DNA of 64,000 nucleotides from the human T2T-CHM13v2.0 reference genome, Homo sapiens, in the NCBI RefSeq assembly GCF_009914755.1, contig NC_060936.1, one strand, 5' to 3'. The translations under genes and the position numbers were made by a program. This document shows positions 1,976-63,058 of this stretch, piece after piece; positions within the stretch are counted from its first letter, which is position 1; the number at the start of each line of letters is the position of its first letter. Under the pieces are notes generated by a model that ran no database searches, was not told the DNA's origin, and worked only from the letters and a program-made list of their open reading frames with translations.

Positions 1976-2880
1976 GTGACTTTGCAACCATTTATCCATG
2001 CCATTGTCCTTATAGACCTATAAAGATCATCTTCCTGAGGCACAAAGCAAGGTGGAGATGGCTGAAGCACGAATGAGGGGCAGCAACAGGATGCTGACCA
2101 CCCCCAGTCCAGCACACCTGCCCACCTCCACTGTCTCCTGTCCTAGGCCACGGAACCTGGGCCATGGATGTCACACACTTTGCTTCCCCCTCCCTCTCCC
2201 TGCACTGAGAATGTACATCCTCATCTCGCCCATCTCCAGATATCCACTCTACAATGGTGTTTTCCTTTCATTTCCATTGTTTCCTTTCTTTTAGGTAATA
2301 GACAATCTCAAAAACAAATTGTATTTATTGCTGTTTCTCTAAAGAGGAACATGCCCTACAAAAGTCTCCTTCTTTATAGATTTCTCATTTATAACAGTGT
2401 GATACTTCTTTTTTATGGTACATAGAACTATTTTCTCTTGATGTTGGTTTCACATAAACAGAAGTAAATATGACTTTACTGGCTATAGAAATACAGCTCG
2501 TGGAGAGAAATGTATTTTGTATCTGAAATATTGCTCTTACCAAGTATTTTTATAAGCACCTTACACATAAAATAAAATGTCAAATAATTCAGAAACAAAT
2601 ATACTATGTTCCAGGGATTGCAAGGAAATTAACATGAAAAGGGACCTGGTAATTCAGGAGTCACTCACTGTTCAGGGAGACAGAAGGTCGGCAGCTGAAC
2701 GTGGAGCTACAAGGCTTCTTGAGGAATTACTACTTTAAAGAAAAACAATGATGTTTTATAGTATTGAAAAAAAAAAACTTTCTAATTTGCCACATATAAA
2801 TTTTAAGAGAAAAATGTTCTAGGAGAGACAAAAATGCTCTTGTTCATTGCCTCCCATAAAAATGAATTTGTACTTCTTAA

Positions 2881-3268
<388 letters not shown>

Positions 3269-3273
3269 ATGAT

Positions 3274-3466
3274 GTGGTTTCTTAACCTAGCACTACTGGC
3301 ATCTTAGACTGGAGAATTCTTTGTTGTGGAGAGCTGTCCTGATGTTGTAGGATGTTTAGCAGCATTCCTGACCTCTACTCACAAATGCCACCAGCCCACC
3401 TTCAGGTGTGATAACCAAAAATGTCTCCAGGCATTGCCAAGTAACAATCTCAGTTGACAACCATTG
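3274..3466 (-). mobile_element. MER20 (hAT-Charlie MITE)
   Basis: ggtttcttaacc...aattctttgttgtgg...gtaggatgtttagcagcat...aaccaaaaatgtctccaggcattgccaa...gttgacaaccattg matches the reverse complement of the recalled MER20 consensus. Confidence 0.8.
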
Positions 3467-4592: not shown

Positions 4593-4853
4593 GAGGCTGG
4601 TTGTGTGAATGCAACAACATACAGCAAGTCTTTGATGTGTAGCCTGAGTAAAGACTGCAGAGATGCAGAAAAGGAGAAAACCCCAACACGCTGTAGCAAG
4701 ACATGAAAACATTCATGTGGCAAGACACACTGTAAAACTTCACTCTCTTTTGGGGGAGGAAATTGGAAATCTATAGATCTCTTCTTGGAGATAGAGCCAG
4801 CTGTCCTGAATGATTCAGTCAGACCCATTTTCTTTCAAACCAAGTCTCAGCGA

Positions 4854-5011
4854 TTTAGGGCCTTTTATAACAAAAGGCGGCCCAGGACAGAAGCAAATAC
4901 TCCTTGAGCACGGTAGCACCAGAGATGTTAATTACCAAAGGAGAAGGGTCAATGCCATCTTAATAGTAGAACCTGCTTTCATTCTGCGAGATAACTTTAT
5001 CTGTAGAAGAC
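4854..5011. repeat. Inverted repeat IR1, left arm
   Basis: Reverse complement aligns without gaps to 5935-6092 at 135/158 by hand count. Confidence 0.93.
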
Positions 5012-5616: not shown

Positions 5617-5934
5617 CTCAGCTTCTCTTCTGTCTCTCTCTAACAAAACAGAAGAAGAATAACCCTCTTCTGGGGACACAAATGGGATTTCCTGGACTGC
5701 TGGGTCACACCTATAATGGTATCTAATCAAAATTCCTTTATGGCAAGGTATAGTGAGTTGCTGCTTTAGAAAGCTGCACTTGGTAAATGCATCCCAATGA
5801 ATGAGATGGATATTCTGTGCATTCACGTTCATTCCTCAGAGGCCTGGTCCCCATGGACTGCACCAACTGGGCTTCCTCATCCTCTGGCTTCTGGCTGAGT
5901 TCAGGCAGTGGGAGGCGCTGGCAGGAAATATGAG

Positions 5935-6092
5935 GTCTTCTACAGATGAAGTCATCTAGCAAAATGCAAGCAGGTTCTACTATTAAGATGGCATTGACCC
6001 TTCTCCATTGGTAATTAACATCTCTGGCACTACTGTGCTCGAGGAGTACCTACTTTTCTCCTGGGCCTTCTTTCATTCTAAAGAACCCTAAA
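5935..6092. repeat. Inverted repeat IR1, right arm
   Basis: gtcttctacagatgaagtcatctagc...aagcaggttctactattaagatggcattgacccttctcc...ccctaaa; complementary to 4854-5011. Confidence 0.93.
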
Positions 6093-6149
6093 AATAATGA
6101 GCCTTTGTCTTAATGATCATATCTCCTTGTTAGTTGCTGTTGTGGCCGA

Positions 6150-26818: not shown

Positions 26819-27157
26819 CTTTTTTTTTTTTCTTTTTTTAAGTTCTGGGATACATGTGCAGAATGTGCAGGTTTGCTACATAGGTATACATGTGCCATGG
26901 TGGTGTGCTGCACCCATCAACCCCTCCTCTAGGTTTTAAGCCCTGCATGCATTAGGAATTTGTCCTAATGCTCTCCATCCCCTTTCTCTGCAACCCCCAA
27001 CAGGCCCCGTGTGTGATGTTCCCCTCCGTGTGTCCGTGTGTTCTCATTGTTCAACTCCCACTTATGGGTCAGAACATGTGGTGTTTGGTTTTCTGTTCCT
27101 GTGTTAGTTTGCTGAGAATGATGGTTTCCAGCTTCATCCATGTCCCTGCAAAGGACA
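26819..27157 (-). mobile_element. L1PA8-like 3' end (5'-truncated)
   Basis: aagttctgggatacatgtgcagaatgtgcagg...ggttttaagccctgcatgcattagg...catccatgtccctgcaaaggaca. Confidence 0.9.
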
Positions 27158-28029
27158 CAACTGTTTCTTTATAAGTTCTACACATACTGATTTAGTGTTA
27201 GTGGGGAAAAGAAAAAAAAAACAGGCGGGGTTTTCATTCAGCAGCAGACAATGGATGCGGGAGGAACTGGAGAGATCAGAAATGTGGTAAACGCTGGTTT
27301 GGTTGCCTCCCATAAAGGACCTCGTTCCAGTGTCATCCTCCTCATCCCCAGAGTCACTTGGATCTGTAAGCCTTGACTGTTGGTTCAATGTCTCGGTCAC
27401 CATCACCAGCCCCCATCTTAGACCCCAGGATGGACTCTAGGGCTGGACCACCATGATGAAAGACGGTGGGCACGGTTCCTGCACACTTCTGGAGGCGGGT
27501 GCAGCACCACGATGGATCTGACCTCCCACCTGGCTGCCCCCAAAGGGCCACTAAGCGCCTGGAACTGCAGAGAAGTCACTGCCCACAGAGCTATGAACTA
27601 GTGATACTCGGGAGTCAGGAAGGAGTTGGCAGAACGAGCCATTCCCATCCTCCCAGGCCTCTGAGGGCCTCTCAAGACACAAGCACGTGAACAAGGCACT
27701 GCTGTGTTTTCTGGCGAAGGTCAGGCAACTTCGCAGACAACGCTTCCCACTCACTTCCCTGTTCCCTGTCACTCTTCTGCTCTCTCTCGGTTCTCCGCGG
27801 TTGGCCACAGCTCCCCTCCCTTCCACAATAAAGTATAACATGTAAGTATTCCCACGCGGTCTGCTTTCACAGGGGATTTGGGCTACGATAACTCCCAACA
27901 AGCCCTCCAATAAGCCTCTATCCCCTTTTAACTTCCAACTTCTGTTTGAAGCTACAACAGGTTCCTAGGAAGCTGCCTCCACAAATCCCTACCCCAGAAA
28001 TGAGCCTGCAAGATCTCAGCCAAGTCACC

Positions 28030-34326: not shown

Positions 34327-34611
34327 GTGAGTAATACTGCTATAAAATAAAGGTGCACAAGTTTCTCTTTGAGATTCTGTTTTCAATTCTTTTGTATATA
34401 TAGCTAGAAGTAGAATTGCTAGATCATATATTGATTCTACTTTTAATTTTTTAAGGAAATGCCATATTGTTTCCATAGCAGCTGTAAATTTTACATTCCC
34501 ATCAACATTATGCAAGGTTTCTGCTGTCATCACATGTTCTCTTTTCTTGACAGTGGCCATCGTAATGGGTGTAAGGTGACAGTTATCTCATTGTGGTGAG
34601 GAGAATGTGGT

Positions 34612-34671
34612 TTTTAATTTTTTAAGGACGGTTCCTTAAATTTTTAAGGAACCGTCCTTAAAAAATTAAAA
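34612..34671. repeat. Perfect palindrome, 29-bp arms with a 2-nt spacer
   Basis: ttttaattttttaaggacggttccttaaa-tt-tttaaggaaccgtccttaaaaaattaaaa. Confidence 0.97.
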
Positions 34672-34740
34672 GTAGAATTAATATATGATTTAGGAGTTCT
34701 ACTTCTAGGTATATGTACAAAAGAATTGAAAACAGAATCA

Positions 34741-41785: not shown

Positions 41786-43695
41786 GAGAAGATAAATAAA
41801 AACAGAAAAATGCAGGAGAAAATCAAAGAGAAAAGGATAAAACTGCCATAAATGGCATCCAGTTGCGATCTGTTAAAAGGGTTCTGACTTTATTCCTGCC
41901 TCCCAGGCCCCTCCTCCTACACTCTGTCCCCACAGATCAGCACCTACAGGCATTAAATTTGTTGCACAAAAATATGCACCTGCCATAATTCCAGAGTCCC
42001 AAATATGGTGAAAATATAATTATCTATTCATTGATCTATTTAACTGTAAAGGACTCTATCAATCGTCTATCAATAAGGAATTTTATATACCAATCTATCT
42101 ATCCATTTGATAATCAGTACCCCAGGCTATCCTGCTTCAATAGTAAGAAAAAAACATTCTCCTCTGTCTCGGTGAAAAAACAAGATTCAGCAACTCATGA
42201 GCCTTCAAATTGAGCTGTAATGAATATTGTGTCGTGCTGGTGATTTCAACCGAATAATTCCAGGAAGGCTGGAAAAGGGGTCGGTCTATCTTCATCCCTT
42301 TTGTCGCCTAAAAGCAAAATCATGAGAAAGAAGTCCAGAATAAAGATGGTAATCCTGGGCTGTAAATGCTGGAACCTCATCCATGATGCCAATTGCTCCA
42401 TAACCACACGGACGTGAACCCCAAAAAGCATGAGATACAAGGTGAGAGTAAACACTGCCCCTGTATGTACAGGTAATCCCTCTGCTAGCTGTGGGTTCTA
42501 AGGCCGACTGCTGAAAAGATTTGACGGAAGTTGCCACTTGGGAAGCTTTTTTTGGAAGTTAAAACAGAAAAACTCAGCGCCTTCCAATGATGCTTTATTT
42601 TATTTGTCAAATATTCATTGTCACCCACCCTTACCCCAATTTCCCAAGGCAACTCTTTTCTGGTTCTTTCTCAGGGACCAGTGGTTGACTACTAGTAAAA
42701 AGGAAAAAGCCGAATATTCACCCCTCATGCTTCATACGAAATCACATCTCTACTTTGCTGCTTGTATTTTGGAAAAATTGCTTAATCCATTTTTTTCAAG
42801 CAGTAATACACTTGGTGATAAACATATTTAAATTGAATACTTCAGCAACGAAAGACTGTGTTCCTTAACCATTTATGCAAGTTCTAGCTTCTTAACTAGG
42901 AAAGAAATAGTGGCAACGACATGTCAGGTCTGTAGCTACATTTTTAAATAATGGGCTTCAAAAAAAAAAAAAAAAAAAGAAAAGGAAAAATCCCTTCCTC
43001 TTAAGGAGGAAAAAAAAGACATCTTTTATCACAAAATCTGTTCCTTCTTTAGCTGTTTTTAATCGATATCTACACCTTTGGGTAGGAAAATAAATCTGTA
43101 TCTTTGAATAGCGTCATTTCCAACAACAGAGCAAGGCTCTGAGATGTGTTCTTTTTTATTAACAAAGGTGTTGTTAAATATCTGCACCATATATGTTTGA
43201 TTTAGTCACTTTAGAAAACCCTAGAGAATGGCTGAGGGTTGTTAGCAGCTGGGTCTATAAATTGTAAACCTTCCCCAGGGCAAAGTGCCACTTGTGATGT
43301 TTGTTACTGTTATTTCATACGACATTTATTTAACCAGGAATAGGAAGAGTGGTGATTCAGCGGTGGTCTGATACCACAAAGGTGAAAAGCGAGTCAGGCA
43401 GGAGGTGCCGAGAATTAGGGCACACACCCTGTCTCAGAGGAAAGTTGGGGCTCAGCCCTACTCGTTGTCAAGAAGCCAGACACCCATTTTTTTCTATGTG
43501 ATATCACCTAGAATTTTTAAATTAGCGATTAATCCAAACTTTAAAACAGACTCTGCGTGGGAAGAACAGAATCCACTTGCGAGCTAGATTCAGGCTGCAA
43601 GCTCCTACCTTCCCAACCTCTGGTTAACAGCTTCCTTGTTGTACCAGAACGGCCACCCAGCCTACTTCATCCTGGCTCCTAGCGTCCAAGCAGCA

Positions 43696-43791
43696 ACTTC
43701 AGCAAGCTACTGCAACTACTGCAGAAATAATAACAGACACATACAAGAAGAACCCAGCTCTGGAAATATGATCAGGGGTTTACTGTAAACA
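43696..43791. repeat. Third copy of the IR2 unit (complementary to 49113-49205)
   Basis: acttcagcaagctactgcaactactgcagaaataataacagacacatacaagaagaacccagctctggaaatatgatcaggggtttac; about 84% to the reverse complement of 49113-49205. Confidence 0.88.
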
Positions 43792-43991
43792 GAAAGAGGA
43801 CAACCACTTACCATGTATATATGGTAATCTGTGTGGACTTTATAGTACAACTCAGAGGAATTTCCTCTTTTCTTATCATATACCAACTTTTTACCACCCC
43901 TTTACAAAACACAAGCATTATCAATTACTGCCAAGAGCACCTCACATATAAAACAAAAAAAATCAAACACAAATAAATTTCATTTAATTCA

Positions 43992-44307
<316 letters not shown>

Positions 44308-45464
44308 TCACTCTTTACCCTTATATAATTTTTAACAATCTAAGAAAAGAAGGAATCAGAAAAAAAAAACACAAATATTTTTTATTTCTCCCATTCTTTA
44401 AAAAAAATTACCAGAAATTGCCCCCTTTAAATTTCAAAATTTTCCTAATTTTACTGTGCCAGCCCGACTCTCATACCTCACTGATTATATCATTCCCACA
44501 CCTGATGCTCCAACAACCCAGGGTATACTTTTAGCTCAGTCCTATAAAAGGCTTCATAACCTGCACTGATCTGGATTCAACGCAGCTGCCGATGGACAAG
44601 AAAAACACATCTGGAGACTCTGCAGCCGTTCTTTCCAGCTGTTTGTGACTCCCGAAAGACACGTGAGCACTTGGCACCATCAGGCACACATCAGTTCGGC
44701 TCTCTTCCACCCCCAGGCACAGTCATCCTGAGCATTGAAGACACTTTAGAAAATGGTTGGCAAGTTGCTCTTGCACTGGGATAATTTTAGACAATCTGAT
44801 ACTTTGACGCTAAAAACATGTTTGGAATTGGTGACTGTAAACAATAATCGTAGCTTGAACTCTGACCCCGGCATGGTTGTATTTTGACTTACCTGGGTAG
44901 GATGCACTATGGAGGGAGCTGCTATAATCCTAATACTGTGGTGCTTAAACTTTTCGACATTATTTTGCTTTCTGTCTTGGGAGGGAGGTATTCTTCTATG
45001 TCTCTATTAGCCACTTCTGGACTTTTCCATCATCATTATATAGCTGCTTACCTCGCCTGTGGCAACAGACACTGGGTTTGTGAATAACAGGACAATGATA
45101 AAGGCTATGTGAGCAAAACGGAACAGCAGCTTAAAAAAGATAAAAGTTTCTTTCTCTCTCACGTAAATACTATCTAGTGCTAAGCACTCCTGGGCTAGAA
45201 TTGTGCCTCCATGGCTGAGAGGGAGCCTGACCCCTTGCCTCTTTTTCCGTCAATGTCCTTACCATTCTCATACAACGAGGCGACTGCAACAGCTCCAGGC
45301 ATCACATTCCAAATCCACCCAGCAGGAAGGATACAAGGCCTTAGGAAGGATCCATCTGGAAAGCCCCATTTGATGCTTTAACATGCAGAGTAGAACGGCT
45401 ACACCCAGCTACAAGCAGTACCAGGAAATGAAGCTTTTATTCCAGCTGGCCATGTGCTCAGTGA

Positions 45465-45753
45465 TTTTTGTTTGTTTGAGACAGGGTCTCACTTTGTCGC
45501 CCAGGCTGGAGAGCAGTGGTGTTATCTCTGCTCACTACAACCTCCACTTCCTGGGTTCAGGTGATCCTCCCACCTCAGCCTCCCAAGTAGCAGGAACTGC
45601 AGGTGTCCACCCACCATGCCCAGCTAATATTTTGTAGAGATGAGGTCTCATCATATTGTCCCAGGCTGGTCTCAAACTCATGGACTCAAACCACCTGCCT
45701 GCCTCAGCCTCCCAAAGTGTTGGGATTACAGGTGTGAGCCACCACACCCGGCC
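45465..45753 (-). mobile_element. AluJb-like
   Basis: gagacagggtctcactttg...gatcctcccacctcagcc...cccaaagtgttgggattacaggtgtgagccacc. Confidence 0.92.
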
Positions 45754-46064
45754 CAGGTTTTTGTTATTGTTTTGGGTTTTTTTGTTTGTTTCTTTTGTTT
45801 CTTGAAAGGAAGAAGAGCAGGTATTGGAAGAGACCATCAGAAGGCCCCTCCACAGTCAGGCCCCACCCATTTTTAGACACAGCTCTTGTTCTGGCGAGTC
45901 TCATTACTTATGGTTTATTCTGGGAACAGGATTTAAGGGGTCGCCTCCCCACTCAAACTCATGACGGCCTTAAGGTCTCTATGCCACTTGGGGAAGACAG
46001 AGAGAAATGAACTGAGCTGCGAGGACAATAATTAAAAGAATCTGCAGGTGAAGCACATTACTAT

Positions 46065-46250
46065 TTTTACCAACGTGCTTTTACGCATTGACTCCAGAAA
46101 TCCTTACAACCATCCTCCGAGAAAGCACTGTCAGCCCCATTTCATCCATGAGGAATCAGGAGCCCAGAAGACTAACTGCCCCAGGTTTCACAGTTAGGAG
46201 TGTGAAGAGCCGACTCCACACCCTGAAGCTAAGAGCAGACTTCTTAGCTT
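46065..46250 (-). mobile_element. MIR SINE
   Basis: tccttacaaccatcc...cccattttcatccatgaggaatcaggagcccagaag...ctgccccaggtttcacag. Confidence 0.65.
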
Positions 46251-48256
46251 CAACTAAGACGCTTCTCCCACACCCACCCGCAAAGGGGCATTCAGATGTG
46301 TCTCGCCCAAACCATCCAAGCCCGAGCACCGGTCGCTTTTCTGCCTTTGAGGTTTCTCACTTGAAAGACATAGTTTGATCTCCCCGTCCCGCTGTGTGCT
46401 GGGCACTGTGGACAGCGTTGACCCTCCCCCTCCGAGCATGAACAGGTGAGTAATGTCTGAAAGAGGACACTCAGGGCTTTGGCTTAGCTTGTAGAATTTG
46501 TTGGTGGGGAGGGGGGGGCCGAGGGGGCACAAAATGTTTTTAAATCTTTTGTGGAAATTATTTACCTTTTAAAATGGGAGATTTTTGCATAGAAATCTCG
46601 ACATCTACCTGTCCTCAGGAGAGAGGAAGATCCAGGAACCCAGAGCCCTCATTCCTGGATAGCGACCTTTGTGGTAGCTGAGGGGCAGCTGTCACTTCCA
46701 GCCAGGAGGCATCTCTGTGGAGACCCTGCTGCCATCTGGCTGCTTCCCCAAACTTTGCTTTACTTGCCTGGCTTTGAGGGCACTTGAGTTTATGACCCAT
46801 GGGAAGGCGGGGCAAAGACACAGATAGTTATGCTACAGGAAATGTCCGTAATTGGTGAATTTCAGGCTACCACAAGCCCCCTGTACCTGCTGCATAGATA
46901 AATACCTGAAAAGGACCTCAGGGCCATTCATCCGGTACCTTTTTACCATCATTAAATTGAAGAGAAAATTGAAACAGTGGCTGGGATCTCTCTTTGATCT
47001 ACAGCAAAGGGATGTTAATAACCATGTTTCTGGGGAGACAGCTGATTAACACGGAACTTAGCAGTATTCCAGTAACAGCCATAGTCAGGAACATTCGTAG
47101 TGAATTAATTTCTAACCAGCTCCTGAATCCATAAATGAGAGGATGATTTGAGTTGTCTGGCCACTCCCTGCTGGGGGGTGACAGCAGCTTGAGCTCTGTG
47201 GGCTCAAAGGCATCTTTTGGGGGCACAAAGTGAATGACAAGGAGTTATGCCATCAAAAGCTTTGTTGCAAAATATATATTTTAAATCTATAAACTCCTAA
47301 GAGCAGAGTTTGGTTTTAAGTCTCTTAATGATTGTACAGATGCTAACAGTACAGAAACCGCCACATGTCTTCTTCTTGGCTCTTTATGCATAAATGTTTA
47401 GGTGGTTCATCTGTCTTAATCTATGGTTGCGTCATAAGATTTCTGACTTGTGTTTCATAGAAATAGTTCTAAACACCCAATCAGACAGGCACTGCAAAGC
47501 AGGCTGAGAAAACTCTGATGATGGTCAGGTATGAGACATGTTTCTCAGTACGTTAATCGGGGTACCATAAACAAGTGATTGTAACATATTTCAAAGACGT
47601 TGTATATTATAAATGTATACAATGATTATTTGTCAATTTAAAATGATAATAAGGTCATCCAAAAACACAATAGCTTACATAAGACACAGGTTTACTGTTC
47701 TTTTTTCCCCCTCATGTAGAGAGTCCTGGCCTAGTAGGGTAGTTCTGAAACTCTCAACATATGGCTTCTACCTCTGGAACCAAAGTGGCTGCTTTGGTTA
47801 CCACTATCACATCTGCATCCCAGCCTGTAGGAAGCAAAGAACCAGAGAACACACATTTTGTCTTTTTAAAGGAAAGGCCTAAGTAGTACATGAGTTGCTT
47901 CTCACATCACATTGGCAACAGCTTCATTGCAGCGTGGCTTCACTGAGATCCAACAGAGGCTGGGAAATGTCATCTTTAGCTGGGCATCCATGGGCCCAGC
48001 TAAAATCCGGGAGTTAACTTATTCAAGAAAATATGAGAAAAGATCCTGTTTGGCAATTAGCAGTCACATTTACACTGGAGACAGGAGACCTTGAATTTTT
48101 TTAAGAAGTTCAAGATGCTACCCTTTCTGCACACAACCTCGTATGTAATGCAATATTAACTCTTGGAAAAGAGGATGGAGGAGCATTCATGACGAGGTTA
48201 ATGTCTCATATGATCCCCAATGTAAGAATAGACATGTGAAAACATATAGCATAGTA

Positions 48257-48487
48257 CAGGCTGAGTATCCCTTACCCGAAATGCCTGGAACCAGAAGTGT
48301 TTTCGATTTTGTTCAGATTATGGAATATTTGCATCACACTTACTGGTTCAGCATCCCTAATCCGAAAAATCCAAAATCTGAAAGCCTCCAGTGAAAATTT
48401 CCTTTGAGCACCACGTCGGCACTCAAGAAGTTTCCAGTTTTGGAGCATGACGGATTTCAGTTTTTCGGATCGGGAGATGTTCAACTG
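48257..48487 (+). mobile_element. Tigger4a (MER46A/Zombi) MITE inserted in a MIR
   Basis: caggctgagtatcccttacccgaaatgcctggaaccagaagtgtt...tttcctttgagcaccacgtcggcactc...gatgttcaac. Confidence 0.85.
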
Positions 48488-48718
48488 TGTTTCAGACCAT
48501 GGGCTCTGGAATTGGAAACCTTGGTTTGGAATACTGCTTCTACTAGTACCTTGTGGCAGTTTGATCTTAGACAAGTTGATTTACCTTTCTGTGCCTTTGT
48601 TGTTTGTACAAATGTGGTGGGGTGCCCGTGGGGGTGGCGGCTGATTGTACCTGGCTTATGGGATATCATGAGAATTAAGTAGCACAATGCTTACAAAGGC
48701 CCTAAAATTGCGCCTGGC
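48488..48718 (+). mobile_element. MIR SINE
   Basis: catgggctctggaatt...gatcttagacaagttgatttacctttctgtgcct...gagaattaagt. Confidence 0.65.
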
Positions 48719-48778
48719 CTCAGCCCCATTCCTGCCTGTGCCCCAGCCACTGGGAAAAGGGGAAGGGAAAAGGAAGCT

Positions 48779-48999
48779 CAGGTGTATTCCTGATAAATCC
48801 ATGTAAGTCACACAGGTGTATTCCTGATAAAGCCAGGTAAGTCACACAGGTGTATTTCTGATAAATCCAGGTAAGTCTGATAAATCCATGTAAGTCACAC
48901 AGGTGTATTCCTGATAAATCCAGGTGAGTCACACAGGTGTATTTCTGATAAATCCAGGTAAGTCACACAGGTGTATTCCTGATAAAGCCAGGTAAGTCA
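48779..48999 (+). repeat. 34-bp minisatellite, about 6.5 copies (caggtgtattyctgataaakccakgtragtcaca)
   Basis: Units begin at 48779, 48813, 48847, 48900, 48934 and 48968, plus a partial unit at about 48877. Confidence 0.95.
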
Positions 49000-49161
49000 G
49001 TCCCACGGCCTCCCCTCGAGGCGTAGGAGGCAGAGAAGTGGCACCTTAACACTTTTTTTCCTTCTCAATATTCTGAGGAGGAGACAGGCTCTCTGTGATA
49101 TGGCTCAATTCATGTTCATGATAAACCCCTAATCATATTTTCAGAGCTGGATTCTTCTTGT

Positions 49162-49309
49162 TTGTGTCTGTTATTTCTGTAGTAGTCGCAGTAGGTTGGT
49201 GAAGTCTTTGCTAGTAAACGTCGCCCTAAACTTAAAAATCATAACATCATTCTGCTTCTCTGAAACAATAGCTGCAATTTCTCAGGCTCTTGAAGCACTA
49301 GGATTTCAA
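49162..49309. repeat. Inverted repeat IR2, left arm
   Basis: Reverse complement aligns to 50174-50321 at about 131/149 with two 1-bp gaps. Confidence 0.93.
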
Positions 49310-49436
49310 CATTAATGCAAGTGCTTTAGAGGAAGAATTGCCACCACATTTACATGCACAGATCTCTTTCCAAAGCTCTTCAAATGTACAACCCTGAGAG
49401 CCCCAGAATCAGTTTAAATCAATTCGGAATGTGCAG

Positions 49437-49670
49437 GTAAGTTAACAGTGTTGAGCATCCATCTACCTTCAGAGGGTCAGAGGGTTGGAAACACACTAGA
49501 AAAAGTCTCATGTTCAGAGACACGAATGGTCAATAATATGGTTATAAATATCATCTTAATTCTGCAAATAATTTTACTATTAATAAATTCCTTTGCCACA
49601 TACACATCCTCCTACAGTATTCTTAGAACACTCCCATCTGATGGTGTTGGACTTGCCTCTTTCCTCACAG
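49437..49670 (+). other. Candidate GT-AG intron (234 nt) inside the IR2 spacer
   Basis: Perfect donor CAG|GTAAGT at 49436/49437; strong acceptor cttgcctctttcctcacAG|G at 49670; ctgat branch-like motif about 30 nt upstream. Confidence 0.4.
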
Positions 49671-50173
49671 GATCTATGTGTGAACAAACGAGAATTATAT
49701 TCCAGGCGTACTTGTTTTCATTGTAGGGCCCTGATGTGCAGAGGGAGTGCTGAAGAGACAAATGCCGCTGGGAAAAGTGGCCTCATTTATTCAAGATCTG
49801 ATAGGTGTTTCCATTGGAACCAAATGTTCAGAACGTCTGCACATTAGAATATTTTGGTTTGAGCCCAAATATTTCTATTTGAGATTTATGGAAAATGAAG
49901 ACAGTGGATGGCACTAGACCAGCGTGTAAGCAGGAGTAACATCTGTGATATTTAGCGACTGGCTAAATGCTTGCTCGCTGTAAGTTGTGTCCCCACATAC
50001 GAGCAAAGATCACTTCTGCCTGTGTGGCAGAAAGGGTCACAAATTCTATCTGAAAGTCTCTGAGCAAGCCACACCATTCTAAACGATCATCACATCTTTG
50101 AGTAATTTGAACAGAATTTGATCTTTTATGGTGTTTTTTCCCCATCCCGTTCCCTCTTCCAGCATTGAAGCCC

Positions 50174-50321
50174 TTGAAATCCTAGATGATTCAAGAGCCC
50201 TGGAAATTGGAGCTATTATTTCAGAGAAGCAGAATGATGTTATGATTTTCAAGTTTAGGGTGACATTAACTAGCAAAGGCTTCACCCACCTACTGCAACA
50301 ACTGAAAAATAACAGACACAA
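50174..50321. repeat. Inverted repeat IR2, right arm
   Basis: ttgaaatcctag...tttcagagaagcagaatgatgttatgattttcaagtttaggg...aataacagacacaa. Confidence 0.93.
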
Positions 50322-51489
50322 GCTTTGGAAGACCTGGTAACTGAGGCCATCCCCCCGTGAGACCACGAGCTGGCATTTAGGGCTCACTCTGTGGGAAAAA
50401 CTCATCTTGAAATCCTGAAACTACTCTCTGAGTGGAGGAAGCTCATTCCAGGAATGTTAAGTGCAAACTTAATAATCAACACAGAAAAAAGCAAAACATG
50501 TGTCCCACCTCACGTTCAGTCTGGGCCACAAATAGACGCTAGTGGAGGTCACCGACTTATTTTTAAAATATTTTTTTTTCAATTTTTAAAGTAACTTTTA
50601 AAAATCCATTTTATTTTTAATGTTTTTCAGACTTATTTATTCTCATAAATCCAGAGATAAAAGGCGGAGCACAAGATTCTTTGCATGCCTTAGGTCTAAG
50701 GTAAGCCCATTTTCGGCATCTGTGCTGGCCATATGTATAAAGCCTATATAATTTCCATCTCTTTTTCTCTTTCTCTCATCTTTGTTTTGTCTCTCCCCTT
50801 CCTTGGAAAGCACATTATTTGAAGTCTGTTCGGTTGAAAAGTGTATCATTCCATTCCCTCCTATTAGCAGGAAGCATCCCCTGGGTGAATTGAAGATCCA
50901 TCCTTTTCTGACCTTCCCAGTCTTCTGGGAGGCTCGCCCTGAAGTGGGGAGTGTTGAGGTGTAGAGCAGAGGAATGTAATTTTCATGCCACTGTCCATAC
51001 ATGGTGAGGAAGCCATTCTATATAAAATGTCACGCTGAATGCACACAGGCAATTTTCTGAGGGATGGACCACAGCTTTCTGTCTAACCTCAACATCATCT
51101 ATGGCACCAGCAATGGCAAACAAAGGCTAAAAACCAGCAGTGTGAATTTCATGAGGCCTGAGGGTGTTTCTTTAGGCCCACTCAGTGGCACGTTTATTTT
51201 CGTTGCCATCGACATATCATGAACTTCCACAATCATGAGCTTTCATATTAAAATTCAACTTTCTTAATTCCCTTGCACCAGCTGGGATCAGTGGGCTCCT
51301 AGGGTGAAGACCACTGAGTGCTGCTGTGTGTAGGCGCCGTCCTAGGGGCCAGGATTGCAGCAATGAGCCAAGCAGACGGCGCCCTGGCCTTCAGGGAGCT
51401 CCCAGCCAGGTTGGTCATCCTCAGCCTGATGTACTCCTCGCTCTACTTAGTATCAGACTCTAAGAACCACTGCTGCTACCGAGTTCCCA

Positions 51490-51660
51490 TCTCAACTCTG
51501 CCACTAACTGGGTTTGATGTTTGCATTTGTATAGCTTTAGGACTTGAGCTTTCTCATAGGTAGAATGGAAATAACAAAATCTACCTCTGTGGGATTTGTA
51601 AGGATTAAGATACCCTGAGGATCACGTAGCGCACAGTACATGCTAAATCAACGTTATTTC
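51490..51660 (+). mobile_element. MIR SINE
   Basis: ctctgccactaactgg...gctttctcataggtagaatggaaataacaaaatctacctc...aggattaaga. Confidence 0.6.
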
Positions 51661-51799
51661 TTGACTCCAATCACCATCATTCCCTCACTTCACAAATTTG
51701 TCAATGAACATTGTATGCACTAAACCAAGTAACTTTTAGAAACCACAGAGTCTGTTTAGATTTACAGCTTTCTTCATGTGGTGTTTGTGTGAGGGCCTT

Positions 51800-51959
51800 T
51801 GAAACGCAGGCCAGAAAGACAGCCCCAGCCAGGAACCAACCCTTCTGGTGCCTAGATCTCCAACTTCCAGTCTCTAGAACTGTGAGGAAATGAATTTCTG
51901 TTGTTTAAGCCACTCAGTCTATCGTATTTTTGTTTCAGCAGCCTGAGCTATCTTATACA
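51800..51959 (+). mobile_element. MLT1A/C-like LTR 3' part
   Basis: acttccagtctctagaactgtgaggaaatgaatttctgttgtttaagccactcagtcta. Confidence 0.75.
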
Positions 51960-52639
51960 ACACCTTATATGGAATGTGTGTTAGCAAAAGGGACCACCTG
52001 ACTCTTTCTTGTGGTCAGTATTTAAGCCAACTCTTTAAACCAAGTGCCACCATGAACATCAGATAAAACAATTTTATCACTCGAAATAGCAGTTTATGAT
52101 TGGCGCAGTTTTTTGTTTTCTAAATTTTAACCAGCCCTCTTCCCTGTCTTTATAAATCAGAATTCCTAAGAAATAGTTGATCAAGGTGATAGCAAAATAT
52201 GGCTACTCAAATGACTGTGTGTCAAATGCATGGTGCCAGGCCCAGTTTGTGCCCCTCTCAGCTCAGCATCCTTCCACCCCCCAGGCCTGGGCTATGTCCA
52301 CCACTCCCTCTTCCTCTGAGGCTCATGCTGCCCTGCCTCCTCCAGGTGGAGGGCTGGATGCCCACCAGCTTCCCTTGCTCCCGTTATGGGAGCTGCAGCA
52401 CCCCTGGGGCCCACATCCGACCTGCCTAGACCTGCAGAAGCTCTGGTTCCTCTGTCTAAATCTAGGCTCCAACGAGACCCTGTACTGTGGGTGTGGAGTT
52501 GAGCTTCCACAGCAGTGACCCCATAAGGCCCAGTAGCAATACAAATGCACAAGGGAGGTAACACCTCGTGGCGAAAATGGGGCCTGCTTTTGTCACAAGG
52601 GAAAAAAAACCATACAGAAAAGGGAACTGTAATTAATCA

Positions 52640-53336
<697 letters not shown>

Positions 53337-62690: not shown

Positions 62691-63058
62691 TCCATGGAAT
62701 ACTAGGCAGCCACAAAAAAAAGAAAGAGTTCATGTCCTTTGCAGGGACATGGATGAAGTTGGAAACCATCATTCTCAGCAAACTAACACAGGAACAGAAA
62801 ACCAAACATCGTGCATTCTCACTCATAAGGGGGAGTTCAACAATGAGAACACATGGACACAGGGAGGGGAACATCACACACCAGGGCCTGTTGGAGGGTG
62901 GGGAGTAAGGGGAGGGGTAGCATTAGGAGAAATACCTGATGTAGATGACGAGTTGATGGGTGCAGCAAACCACCATGGCACGTGTATACCTATGTAACCA
63001 ACCTGCACGTTCCGCACATGTACCCCAGAACTTAAAGTCTAAGATAATAAATAAATAA
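62691..63058 (+). mobile_element. L1PA7-like 3' end
   Basis: ccatggaatact...catgtcctttgcagggacatggatgaag...ggagaaatacctgatgtagatgac...agaacttaaa plus A-rich tail. Confidence 0.9.

What the first reader, a model, noticed from the sequence alone, without database searches (positions are those of the whole stretch)
49162..50321. IR2: about 148-bp inverted repeat bracketing a candidate intron
Seen: the reverse complement of 49162-49309 matches 50174-50321 at about 131/149, including the perfect run tttcagagaagcagaatgatgttatgatttt. The left arm keeps CpGs that are TG/CA in the right arm. I see no similarity to IR1 or to any repeat I recognise. The left arm lies between a possible acceptor (catattttcAG 49144) and the perfect donor at 49436, i.e. 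in an exon-like unit of about 292 nt.
Basis: partly seen in the sequence, partly recalled or inferred. Interest (0 to 1): 0.72.

Follow-up and report, generated by a model that had tools for sequence, protein, structure and literature searches.

The report
Single-locus inverted duplication in TMEM132D intron
Two diverged copies of a roughly 150-base segment face each other across 864 bases inside an intron of TMEM132D; it looks like an old local inverted duplication that could fold the pre-mRNA into a long hairpin, with no sign of a transposon family, a known RNA gene or a real exon-intron unit.

Summary
Window 49162-49309 matches the reverse complement of 50174-50321 at 131 of 149 columns (16 mismatches, 2 gaps, E 2e-47).

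- **Copies.** Searches of the whole T2T genome find only these two arms and a third partial inverted copy at 43696-43782. The 864-nt spacer is single copy.
- **Controls.** True interspersed repeats in the same window give 2,075-3,299 first-look candidates with the same tool. A MIR-like segment is missed, so a very old family cannot be excluded.
- **Transposon reading.** It fails on three features: no target-site duplication, homology running past the repeat edge, and no transposase trace.
- **Other negatives.** There is no Rfam, Pfam or paralogue hit.
- **Splice signals.** The plus-strand signals are present but no better than background. RefSeq lists no exon here.

Best reading: an old, apparently neutrally drifting local inverted duplication. 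The TMEM132D pre-mRNA spans both arms, so they could form a duplex of about 150 bp (about -220 kcal/mol). That places it among catalogued "non-repetitive" intronic dsRNAs (PMC11838218). Interest is low.

The parts
49162..49309 (.). Left arm of the inverted repeat. It keeps 3 CpGs. It is the most complete copy of the duplicated unit, which runs from about 49110 to about 49320.
   Evidence: (cmsearch 144.1 bits)
50174..50321 (.). Right arm, the reverse complement of the left arm at 131/149 columns. It has no CpG.
   Evidence: (144.3 bits)
49310..50173 (.). 864-nt spacer, which would be the loop of the hairpin. It is single copy in the genome.
   Evidence: 1 candidate, itself; no Pfam family above cut-off on its ORFs
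49110..49161 (.). Outward continuation of the left unit. It is shared with the third copy but lost or strongly diverged in the right arm, so the edge of the inverted repeat is not the edge of the duplicated unit.
43687..43795 (.). Third, partial copy. Its core 43696-43782 is the reverse complement of 49122-49205 at 87%, and it matches the right arm at 80% over 45 nt. It is inverted relative to the left arm and direct relative to the right arm, and lies 5,339 nt upstream of the left unit.
   Evidence: 23.2 bits, E 3e-6
49434..49442 (+). Perfect 9/9 donor-like site CAG|GTAAGT, in the spacer 125 nt inside the left arm and antisense to TMEM132D.
   Evidence: 6 in the window against 0.49 expected; 4 of the 6 lie in the adjacent minisatellite
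50143..50162 (+). Pyrimidine tract plus CAG: an acceptor-like site just inside the right arm.
   Evidence: 16/18 pyrimidines; 16 such sites on the plus strand of the window

Best explanation
IR2 is an old inverted duplication confined to this one locus. It is not a transposon and not an exon-intron unit.

**What is shown.** A unit of about 150-210 bp, best preserved at about 49110-49320, is present three times within 6.6 kb and nowhere else detectable in the genome:
- the left arm;
- an inverted copy 864 nt downstream (the right arm);
- an inverted partial copy 5.3 kb upstream.

All three differ pairwise by about 12-20%. At the left/right differences they show no clear nesting, so they are of roughly one age.

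**Origin (inferred).** One complex event, or a few, of DNA-level templated inverted duplication: a replication template switch or break-induced repair that copied the opposite strand nearby. This happened tens of millions of years ago. K2P 0.118 gives roughly 25-55 My at assumed (recalled) neutral rates of 1.1-2.2e-9 per site per year. Neutral decay followed.

**What it does now (inferred).** The minus-strand TMEM132D primary transcript runs through both arms. The intron RNA can therefore fold them into an imperfect duplex of about 150 bp, with a longest perfect stretch of 31 bp and an 864-nt loop. That is the type of structure ADAR enzymes edit. I expect no sequence-specific function beyond that.
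For: **Real and far beyond chance.**

**Confined to this locus.**
- Genome searches with the whole element, the left unit, the spacer and the third-copy region returned 2, 3, 1 and 2 first-look candidates, all local.
- The 31-mer with up to 3 mismatches has 2 hits, both arms, and 0 for the reversed control.
- A sequence-only model of the arms finds just 3 places in the window.

**Same tool on known-type repeats in the same window.**
- 2,075 and 2,525 candidates at 75-89% identity for the flanks.
- 3,299 candidates for the short palindromic element at 34373-34739.

**Not a terminal inverted repeat.** Homology between the left unit and the third copy continues about 40-50 nt outside the repeat edge. 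The 10 nt on either side of the repeat are not a direct repeat.

**No coding or RNA-family signal.**
- Pfam finds nothing above cut-off on 9 ORFs.
- The 72-aa ORF over the right arm has no paralogue in the genome. Its left-arm counterpart carries 1 TGA and 1 TAA.
- None of the 6 Rfam matches at E<=1 in 43000-51500 touches the arms.

**Neutral pattern.**
- 9 transitions and 7 transversions, with 3 of the transitions at CpG sites.
- The transitions leave 4 G:U pairs in plus-strand RNA and 5 in minus-strand RNA, so neither strand is favoured (my count).

**Hairpin capacity.**
- Duplex energy is -222.4 kcal/mol (plus RNA) and -220.0 (minus RNA), against -59 +/- 6 and -56 +/- 7 for 100 shuffles each.
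- The full 1,301-nt fold keeps the long stem.

**Matches a catalogued kind.**
- Under the dsRNAscan scoring quoted in PMC11838218 (+3/-4/-12, threshold 75), IR2 scores 305 by my arithmetic.
- Its 148 bp, 31 contiguous bp, 88% pairing and about -220 kcal/mol sit beside that paper's medians for edited non-repetitive dsRNAs: 144 bp, 30 bp, 87.5%, -184.8 kcal/mol.
Against: - **Limited sensitivity of the genome search.** A 155-nt segment at 48496-48650 that I recognise from memory as MIR-like returned only itself. The unit could therefore belong to a very old, highly diverged family that RepeatMasker/Dfam would name. That would not remove the need for a local duplication, because the local copies are only 12-13% apart.
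- **No outgroup genome was available.** The age, the direction of copying, the mechanism and the claim of neutrality are all inferences.
- **Second similar repeat nearby.** IR1 at 4831-5011 / 5935-6116 is also confined to its locus and has nearly the same geometry, with a 923-nt spacer and 85% identity. This coincidence is left unexplained by 'random local duplication'.
- **CpG asymmetry.** The left arm retains all 3 CpGs and the right arm none. This could hint at unequal constraint or methylation, although the numbers are small.
- **Plus-strand splice signals.** They are good individually.
- **No expression, editing or small-RNA data could be consulted.**
Confidence: 0.7

Rival explanations
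1. Relic of a non-autonomous DNA transposon about 1.16 kb long with long (about 150-bp) terminal inverted repeats. It would belong to a family that is either extremely low-copy or too old for the search used here. The third copy would be a solo terminus left by local hopping.
For: - The geometry is transposon-like: arms of about 150 bp around a spacer of about 0.9 kb.
- IR1, 44 kb away, has the same geometry.
- A third fragment of similar divergence lies nearby.
- The genome search cannot see MIR-age repeats.
Against: - No other copy exists at 75% identity or above in 3.1 Gb. Real transposon-type repeats in the window give thousands of candidates.
- Arms only 12% apart imply an age at which sister copies would still be easy to find.
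- Left-unit homology with the third copy runs about 40-50 nt past the outer edge of the repeat.
- There is no flanking direct repeat.
- There is no transposase-like ORF.
- IR1 and IR2 share no sequence, so each would need its own single-copy family.
Confidence: 0.1
2. An unannotated plus-strand transcript, antisense to TMEM132D, has exon-like units 49145-49436 and 50163-50336. These base-pair with each other across a 726-nt intron (49437-50162), so that the inverted repeat modulates its splicing.
For: - Perfect donor at 49434-49442.
- Acceptor with 16/18 pyrimidines at 50162/50163, and a 7/9 donor at 50336.
- A frame stays open through 50122-50340 (72 aa).
- The third copy keeps the AG that corresponds to 49143-49144.
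Against: - RefSeq lists no exon of any gene in the window (hub table).
- Such donor-acceptor pairs are the rule here: 10 of 14 on the plus strand and 4 of 6 on the minus strand.
- The 49144 acceptor has a poor pyrimidine tract, below 12/18.
- No frame is open across 49145-49436.
- The 72-aa ORF has no Pfam family and no paralogue, and its sister copy is broken by stops.
- There is no CpG-island or promoter-like composition nearby.
Confidence: 0.06
3. A selected RNA hairpin in the TMEM132D intron. Possible roles: an ADAR-edited regulatory dsRNA, a source of endogenous small RNAs, or a structure that shapes processing of the very long intron.
For: - The duplex is very stable on the sense (minus) strand, at -220 kcal/mol.
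- It has a 31-bp perfect stretch.
- Its parameters sit next to the medians of edited non-repetitive dsRNAs (PMC11838218).
- That paper reports conserved dsRNAs enriched in cortex-expressed neuronal genes (passage seen). TMEM132D as a brain-expressed gene is my recollection only.
Against: - The arms have accumulated 16 mismatches and 2 indels.
- G:U wobble shows no bias toward either strand, 4 against 5.
- The perfect run is within chance (p = 0.21).
- No Rfam family matches.
- In PMC11838218 only 4,597 of about 497,000 non-repetitive predicted dsRNAs were edited.
- Conservation, editing and small-RNA data were not available to me.
Confidence: 0.12

Closest known systems
Non-repetitive intramolecular dsRNAs predicted genome-wide by dsRNAscan (Andrews & Bass, preprint PMC11838218; I read passages, section 9 and the text of Table 1)
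   Same: - Two complementary arms lie within 10 kb in one primary transcript, in an intron.
- The score of 305 is far above their threshold of 75.
- Length, contiguous pairing, percentage paired and free energy are close to their medians for the edited non-repetitive class.
- The locus lies 3.51 Mb from the end of the chromosome (contig length). The paper reports enrichment of this class near chromosome tips, with the density peak within 3 Mb in 19 of 24 chromosomes.
   Different: - I could not check whether this locus is in their catalogue. The one supplementary file held does not mention TMEM132D.
- I could not check whether RepeatMasker labels the arms.
- The loop is 864 nt, against their median of 509 for edited and 1,407 for unedited.
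- Editing is untested.
Inverted Alu pairs in introns, the classical ADAR substrates (general knowledge; several such pairs are in this window)
   Same: Inverted copies a few hundred to a few thousand nt apart in a pre-mRNA, forming long imperfect dsRNA.
   Different: Alu pairs arise from two independent insertions of a million-copy family. IR2's arms are copies of each other and exist only here.
Short DNA transposons with terminal inverted repeats, such as the palindromic element at window 34373-34739 and the Tigger/MER2-like one at about 48245-48500 (the family name is recalled, not tested)
   Same: Two inverted arms around a short interior.
   Different: Those have thousands of dispersed copies. 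IR2 has none, has no target-site duplication, and its unit overruns the repeat edge.
Reverse-complement copies made by replication template switching (Loytynoja & Goldman 2017, PMC5453318; Monttinen & Loytynoja, 10.1101/2021.04.15.439925 and PMC10710096; search listing and starts of abstracts only) and microinversions flanked by inverted repeats (Potapova et al. 2022, PMC8755829; abstract read)
   Same: A local mutational process that writes the reverse complement of a nearby sequence and so creates hairpin-forming DNA from nothing.
   Different: The microinversions in the one abstract read in full are 17-33 nt, and template-switch copies are, as I recall, also short. IR2 copies about 150 nt or more over a 0.9-kb jump, and a second copy lies 5.3 kb away. 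Junction microhomology can no longer be read after 12% divergence.

Membership tests
DNA transposon with terminal inverted repeats (MITE or non-autonomous element) | Multiple dispersed copies of the same element in the genome | tested here: not met
   Only local copies are found. Positive controls give 2,075-3,299 candidates. Caveat: MIR-age divergence is invisible to the tool.
DNA transposon with terminal inverted repeats (MITE or non-autonomous element) | Target-site duplication directly flanking the two termini | tested here: not met
   The 10 nt outside 49162 and the 10 nt outside 50321 are not a direct repeat, and there is no TA or TTAA pair at the edges.
DNA transposon with terminal inverted repeats (MITE or non-autonomous element) | Outer ends of the inverted repeat are the ends of the mobile unit | tested here: not met
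   The left unit and the third copy stay homologous from 49161 out to about 49110-49122.
DNA transposon with terminal inverted repeats (MITE or non-autonomous element) | Transposase remnant (autonomous members only) | tested here: not met
   No Pfam family above cut-off on 9 ORFs from the arms and spacer.
Non-repetitive intramolecular dsRNA (dsRNAscan class, PMC11838218) | Complementary arms within 10 kb scoring at least 75 with +3 match, -4 mismatch, -12 gap | tested here: met
   131*3 - 16*4 - 2*12 = 305, from the counts and the scoring quoted. Duplex energy -220 to -222 kcal/mol.
Non-repetitive intramolecular dsRNA (dsRNAscan class, PMC11838218) | Arms do not intersect annotated repeats | tested here: inconclusive
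   No family is detectable in the genome. No RepeatMasker/Dfam was available, and old families are missed.
Non-repetitive intramolecular dsRNA (dsRNAscan class, PMC11838218) | Both arms lie in one transcript; A-to-I editing on both arms for the 'edited' subclass | not testable with these tools
   The hub annotation places the window wholly inside the TMEM132D primary transcript (minus strand). No RNA-seq or editing database was available.
Spliced exon-intron unit on the plus strand | Consensus donor and acceptor in the right order | tested here: met
   Donor 9/9 at 49436 and acceptor 16/18 pyrimidines at 50163. This is not discriminating: 10 of 14 strong plus-strand donors have such an acceptor downstream.
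Spliced exon-intron unit on the plus strand | An observed or annotated transcript with that junction | not testable with these tools
   RefSeq (hub table) lists no exon in the window. RNA-seq was not available.
Known structured RNA family (miRNA precursor and others) | Match to an Rfam covariance model | tested here: not met
   The 6 matches at E<=1 in 43000-51500 all lie outside the arms. They are Alu-derived, plus a sub-threshold mir-1290 hit at 48406-48482.
Templated local inverted duplication (template switch or break-induced replication) | Reverse-complement copy close to its source, absent elsewhere | tested here: met
Templated local inverted duplication (template switch or break-induced replication) | Ancestral state without the copy, and microhomology at the junctions | not testable with these tools
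   This needs outgroup primate and mammal genomes. The junctions are blurred by 12% divergence and indels.

The most novel reading that the evidence does not exclude
IR2 and IR1 may record one specific mutational process rather than two accidents.

- Both exist at a single locus each.
- Both have arms of about 150-180 nt and a spacer of about 0.9 kb (864 and 923 nt).
- Their arm divergences are statistically indistinguishable: 11% and 15% mismatch, standard error about 3% each.
- They lie 44 kb apart in the same intron, 3.5 Mb from the chromosome end.

Such a process would be a templated inverted duplication with a characteristic jump of about 1 kb, active in distal chromosome regions. It would explain the so far unexplained enrichment of non-repetitive dsRNA-forming repeats near chromosome tips. 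It would also seed live ADAR or Dicer substrates in the pre-mRNAs of long genes.
Probability: 0.1. Interest if true: 0.5.

Novelty: new member of a known kind. Interest (0 to 1): 0.22.

Why it matters
On its own, very little. It is one more intronic inverted repeat that can make dsRNA, in a genome for which about half a million non-repetitive ones have been predicted (PMC11838218).

It has modest value as a clean example:
- The arms are copies of each other rather than two insertions of a repeat family.
- It therefore documents DNA-level creation of a hairpin of about 150 bp.
- A second example with the same geometry sits 44 kb away.

If brain RNA-seq showed clustered A-to-I editing on it, it would be a well-defined non-Alu ADAR substrate in TMEM132D.

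Tried and rejected
- **High-copy repeat.** Rejected (against controls 18, 19, 51).
- **Coding origin of the arms.**
  - The right arm lies in a 72-aa stop-to-stop frame, and a 113-aa frame is open on the other strand.
  - Pfam finds nothing above cut-off: best E 0.049, all below the curated scores.
  - The six-frame genome search scored 5 candidates. Only the two arms matched, and the left one carries 2 stops.
  - By my reading, most arm differences change the amino acid.
  - I therefore did not spend search for homologous proteins, the search of protein representatives, the ESM Atlas or structure prediction on it.
- **Known RNA family.** None.
- **Relation to IR1.** None.
- **Relation to the adjacent 34-bp minisatellite.** No similarity appeared in the self-comparisons.
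- **Strand bias of G:U wobble as a sign of RNA-level selection.** 4 against 5, so none.
- **The perfect 31-nt run as a sign of constraint.** Within chance (p = 0.21).
- **CpG island or promoter near the plus-strand 'exon'.** None: CpG observed/expected is 0.12-0.56 across 47-52 kb.
- **More sensitive genome-wide searches.** A DNA alignment and a sequence-only covariance model were not accepted for this genome. The model could be run only on the window.
- **Earlier findings of this scan.** Closed to the session.
- **Literature.**
  - 'TMEM132D' with 'inverted repeat' gave 3 papers. Judged from the listing alone, each holds both terms once and none is about this locus.
  - 'TMEM132D-AS1' gave 45 papers. 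The 10 listed are cancer lncRNA papers with no positional information, and none was read.
  - The one supplementary file held for PMC11838218 does not mention TMEM132D. Its large tables of predicted dsRNAs were not available to me and may well list this locus.

Full report
**1. The observation**

The sequence at 49162-49309 and the reverse complement of 50174-50321 align over 149 columns. There are 131 identities, 16 mismatches (9 transitions, 7 transversions) and two single-base gaps. That is 87.9% identity and a K2P distance of 0.118.

- BLAST E-values are 2e-47 within the window and 1.3e-42 against the 3.1-Gb genome.
- An ungapped core of 117 nt at 88% was found independently.
- The left arm has three CpGs that read TG, TG and CA in the right arm, and the right arm has none.
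- The AG at 49143-49144 and the 9/9 donor CAG|GTAAGT at 49434-49442 are also there.

**2.

A third, partial copy lies at 43696-43782.

- It is the reverse complement of 49122-49205 at 87% over 87 nt. It matches the outer part of the right arm at 80% over 45 nt.
- A sequence-only model built from the two arms finds exactly these three places in the 64-kb window.
- This copy continues about 40-50 nt beyond the outer edge of the left arm. The duplicated unit is therefore larger than the inverted repeat, at about 49110-49320, and the left copy is the most complete.
- In the roughly 44 nt shared by all three, the third copy agrees with the left arm at 4 of the 6 left/right differences and with the right arm at 2 (my reading). 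The three copies are close to a star and so of similar age.

**3. Is it a repeat family?**

The window's own genome (T2T-CHM13) was searched with five queries:

| Query | First-look candidates |
|---|---|
| Whole element, 49100-50400 | 2 |
| Left unit | 3 |
| 864-nt spacer | 1 |
| Region of the third copy | 2 |
| 31-mer, up to 3 mismatches | 2 hits, 0 for the reversed control |

Every match is one of the three local copies.

The tool warns that it is not exhaustive, so I calibrated it on the same window.

- The flanks 45800-49100 and 50330-52750 gave 2,075 and 2,525 candidates. Dispersed hits had 75-89% identity to elements at about 48245-48500 and about 51806-51965.
- The short palindromic element at 34373-34739 gave 3,299 candidates. 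This is what a true transposon-type inverted repeat looks like with this tool.
- A segment at 48496-48650 that I recognise from memory as MIR-like returned only itself. Families of that age are invisible here.

The conclusion is that no family is detectable down to about 75% identity. The arms are only 12% apart, so sister copies of the same age would have been found. Even if the unit descends from a very old family, the three local copies must be products of local duplication.

**4. Transposon anatomy**

Three further features of a terminal-inverted-repeat element fail.

- The sequences flanking the repeat are not a direct repeat.
- The unit overruns the repeat edge.
- No ORF in the arms or spacer matches a Pfam family above its cut-off.

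**5. Coding or RNA-gene origin**

- The right arm sits in a 72-aa stop-to-stop frame. That peptide has no Pfam family.
- The peptide has no paralogue in a six-frame search of the genome. Five candidates were scored and only the two arms matched. The left arm matched at 69% with one TGA and one TAA.
- Rfam at E<=1 gives six matches in 43000-51500. None is in the arms or spacer.

**6. The plus-strand 'intron'**

On the plus strand the signals are:
- an AG at 49144;
- a perfect donor at 49436;
- a very pyrimidine-rich acceptor at 50162/50163 (16 of 18);
- a 7/9 donor at 50336.

These would delimit units of 292 and 174 nt around a 726-nt intron. As a control I counted the same signals over the whole window.

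- 14 plus-strand and 6 minus-strand donors reach at least 8/9.
- 10 of the 14 and 4 of the 6 have an acceptor with at least 15/18 pyrimidines 200-2000 nt downstream.
- The 49144 acceptor does not reach even 12/18.

No frame is open across 49145-49436. Composition shows no CpG island. RefSeq lists no exon of any gene in the window (hub table).

The excess of perfect donors in the window, 6 against 0.49 expected, comes mostly from the neighbouring minisatellite. Four of the six lie in it.

The exon-intron reading is therefore unsupported. Only RNA-seq can exclude it.

**7. What it can do**

By the hub annotation the whole window lies inside the minus-strand TMEM132D gene, with no exon. Both arms are therefore in one intron of one primary transcript.

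- The arms form a duplex of -220.0 kcal/mol as minus-strand RNA and -222.4 as plus-strand RNA. For 100 shuffles each, the values are -56 +/- 7 and -59 +/- 6.
- The 1,301-nt fold keeps the stem from about 49141 to about 50340.
- The nine transitions leave 4 G:U pairs on the plus strand and 5 on the minus strand. There is no strand-specific preservation of pairing.
- The 31-bp perfect stretch is expected by chance in 21% of simulations.

I read this as a structure that forms because of its history, not one maintained by selection.

**8. Comparison with what is known**

Andrews & Bass (preprint PMC11838218; passages, section 9 and the text of Table 1 read) scanned the human genome for such arms.

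- They predict about 5 million dsRNAs, of which about 497,000 are 'non-repetitive' and 4,597 of those are edited.
- Their medians for the edited non-repetitive class are 144 bp, 30 contiguous bp, 87.5% paired, -184.8 kcal/mol and a 509-nt loop.
- IR2 has 148 bp, 31 bp, 88%, about -220 kcal/mol and an 864-nt loop. It scores 305 on their scale, where the threshold is 75.
- They also report, without explanation, enrichment of this class near chromosome tips. IR2 lies 3.51 Mb from the end of its 133,324,548-base chromosome.

IR2 is thus a member of a catalogued kind. I could not check whether this locus is in their tables.

Replication template switching is the described mechanism that writes reverse-complement copies nearby (search listing only; abstract of PMC8755829). 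IR2 is far longer than the 17-33 nt events in the one abstract I read and than the template-switch copies as I recall them.

**9. Origin and age (inference)**

The three copies have similar divergence and are confined to 6.6 kb. Both derived copies are inverted relative to the most complete one. This suggests one complex event, or a few closely spaced ones, of templated inverted duplication.

With assumed (recalled) neutral rates of 1.1-2.2e-9 per site per year, K = 0.118 corresponds to roughly 25-55 My. No outgroup genome was available, so the age, direction and mechanism remain untested.

**10. An unexplained coincidence**

A second inverted repeat lies 44 kb away in the same intron, at 4831-5011 / 5935-6116.

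- It is 158 nt at 85% by BLAST, with a 923-nt spacer.
- Its arms match nowhere else in the genome: the only non-local hits of that search are four weak ones (77-82%, E 2e-6 to 9e-5) to the spacer just inside the right arm, about window 5840-5933.
- It shares no sequence with IR2.
- Its geometry is almost the same, and its divergence is statistically indistinguishable.

This is the basis of the 'novel case'. I give it about 10%.

**11. Verdict**

IR2 is real and is not a detectable repeat family. It is best explained as an old local inverted duplication that can form an intronic dsRNA hairpin. It is a new member of a known kind, and interest is low (0.22).

Noticed in passing
It is 158 nt at 85% by BLAST and about 181 nt with indels, with a 923-nt spacer. 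The only other genome hits are 4 weak ones to the spacer just inside the right arm (about 5840-5933), not to the arms. It shares no sequence with IR2, although the geometry and divergence are nearly the same.
   Followed up: partly
window 48779-48999 (+): A 34-bp minisatellite of about 6.5 units. Each unit carries a 5' splice-site consensus: 4 are perfect CAGGTAAGT and the others are one base off. On the TMEM132D-sense strand each unit reads as the complement of that donor motif. The array is unique in the genome and ends about 110 nt before the left unit of IR2.
   Followed up: partly
window 34373-34457 and 34655-34739: A short palindromic element: 85-nt arms at 93% identity with a 197-nt spacer. 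It belongs to a high-copy interspersed family, with 3,299 first-look candidates and hits at 72-86%. It is presumably a DNA-transposon-derived MITE. It served as the positive control.
   Followed up: partly
window about 48245-48500: An interspersed repeat with more than 2,000 genomic candidates at 75-81% identity. Its ends look like a Tigger/MER2-type MITE, but that name is from memory only. A sub-threshold Rfam mir-1290 match (40.3 bits against a gathering score of 82) lies inside it at 48406-48482.
   Followed up: no
window 48496-48650: A segment that looks MIR-like to me (recall only). The genome search returns nothing but itself. This shows the tool's blindness to very old repeats.
   Followed up: partly
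window about 51806-51965: Another old interspersed repeat. There are 2,525 first-look candidates for the 50330-52750 query, and all listed hits, at 76-89% identity, fall on this segment.
   Followed up: no
window 26837-27170 and 62719-63036: A low-copy-in-window inverted pair, 336 nt at 83% identity and 35.5 kb apart. It is probably two copies of an interspersed family. This was not checked against the genome.
   Followed up: no
window 44887-44895 (-): The only perfect CAGGTAAGT on the TMEM132D-sense strand in the window.
   Followed up: no
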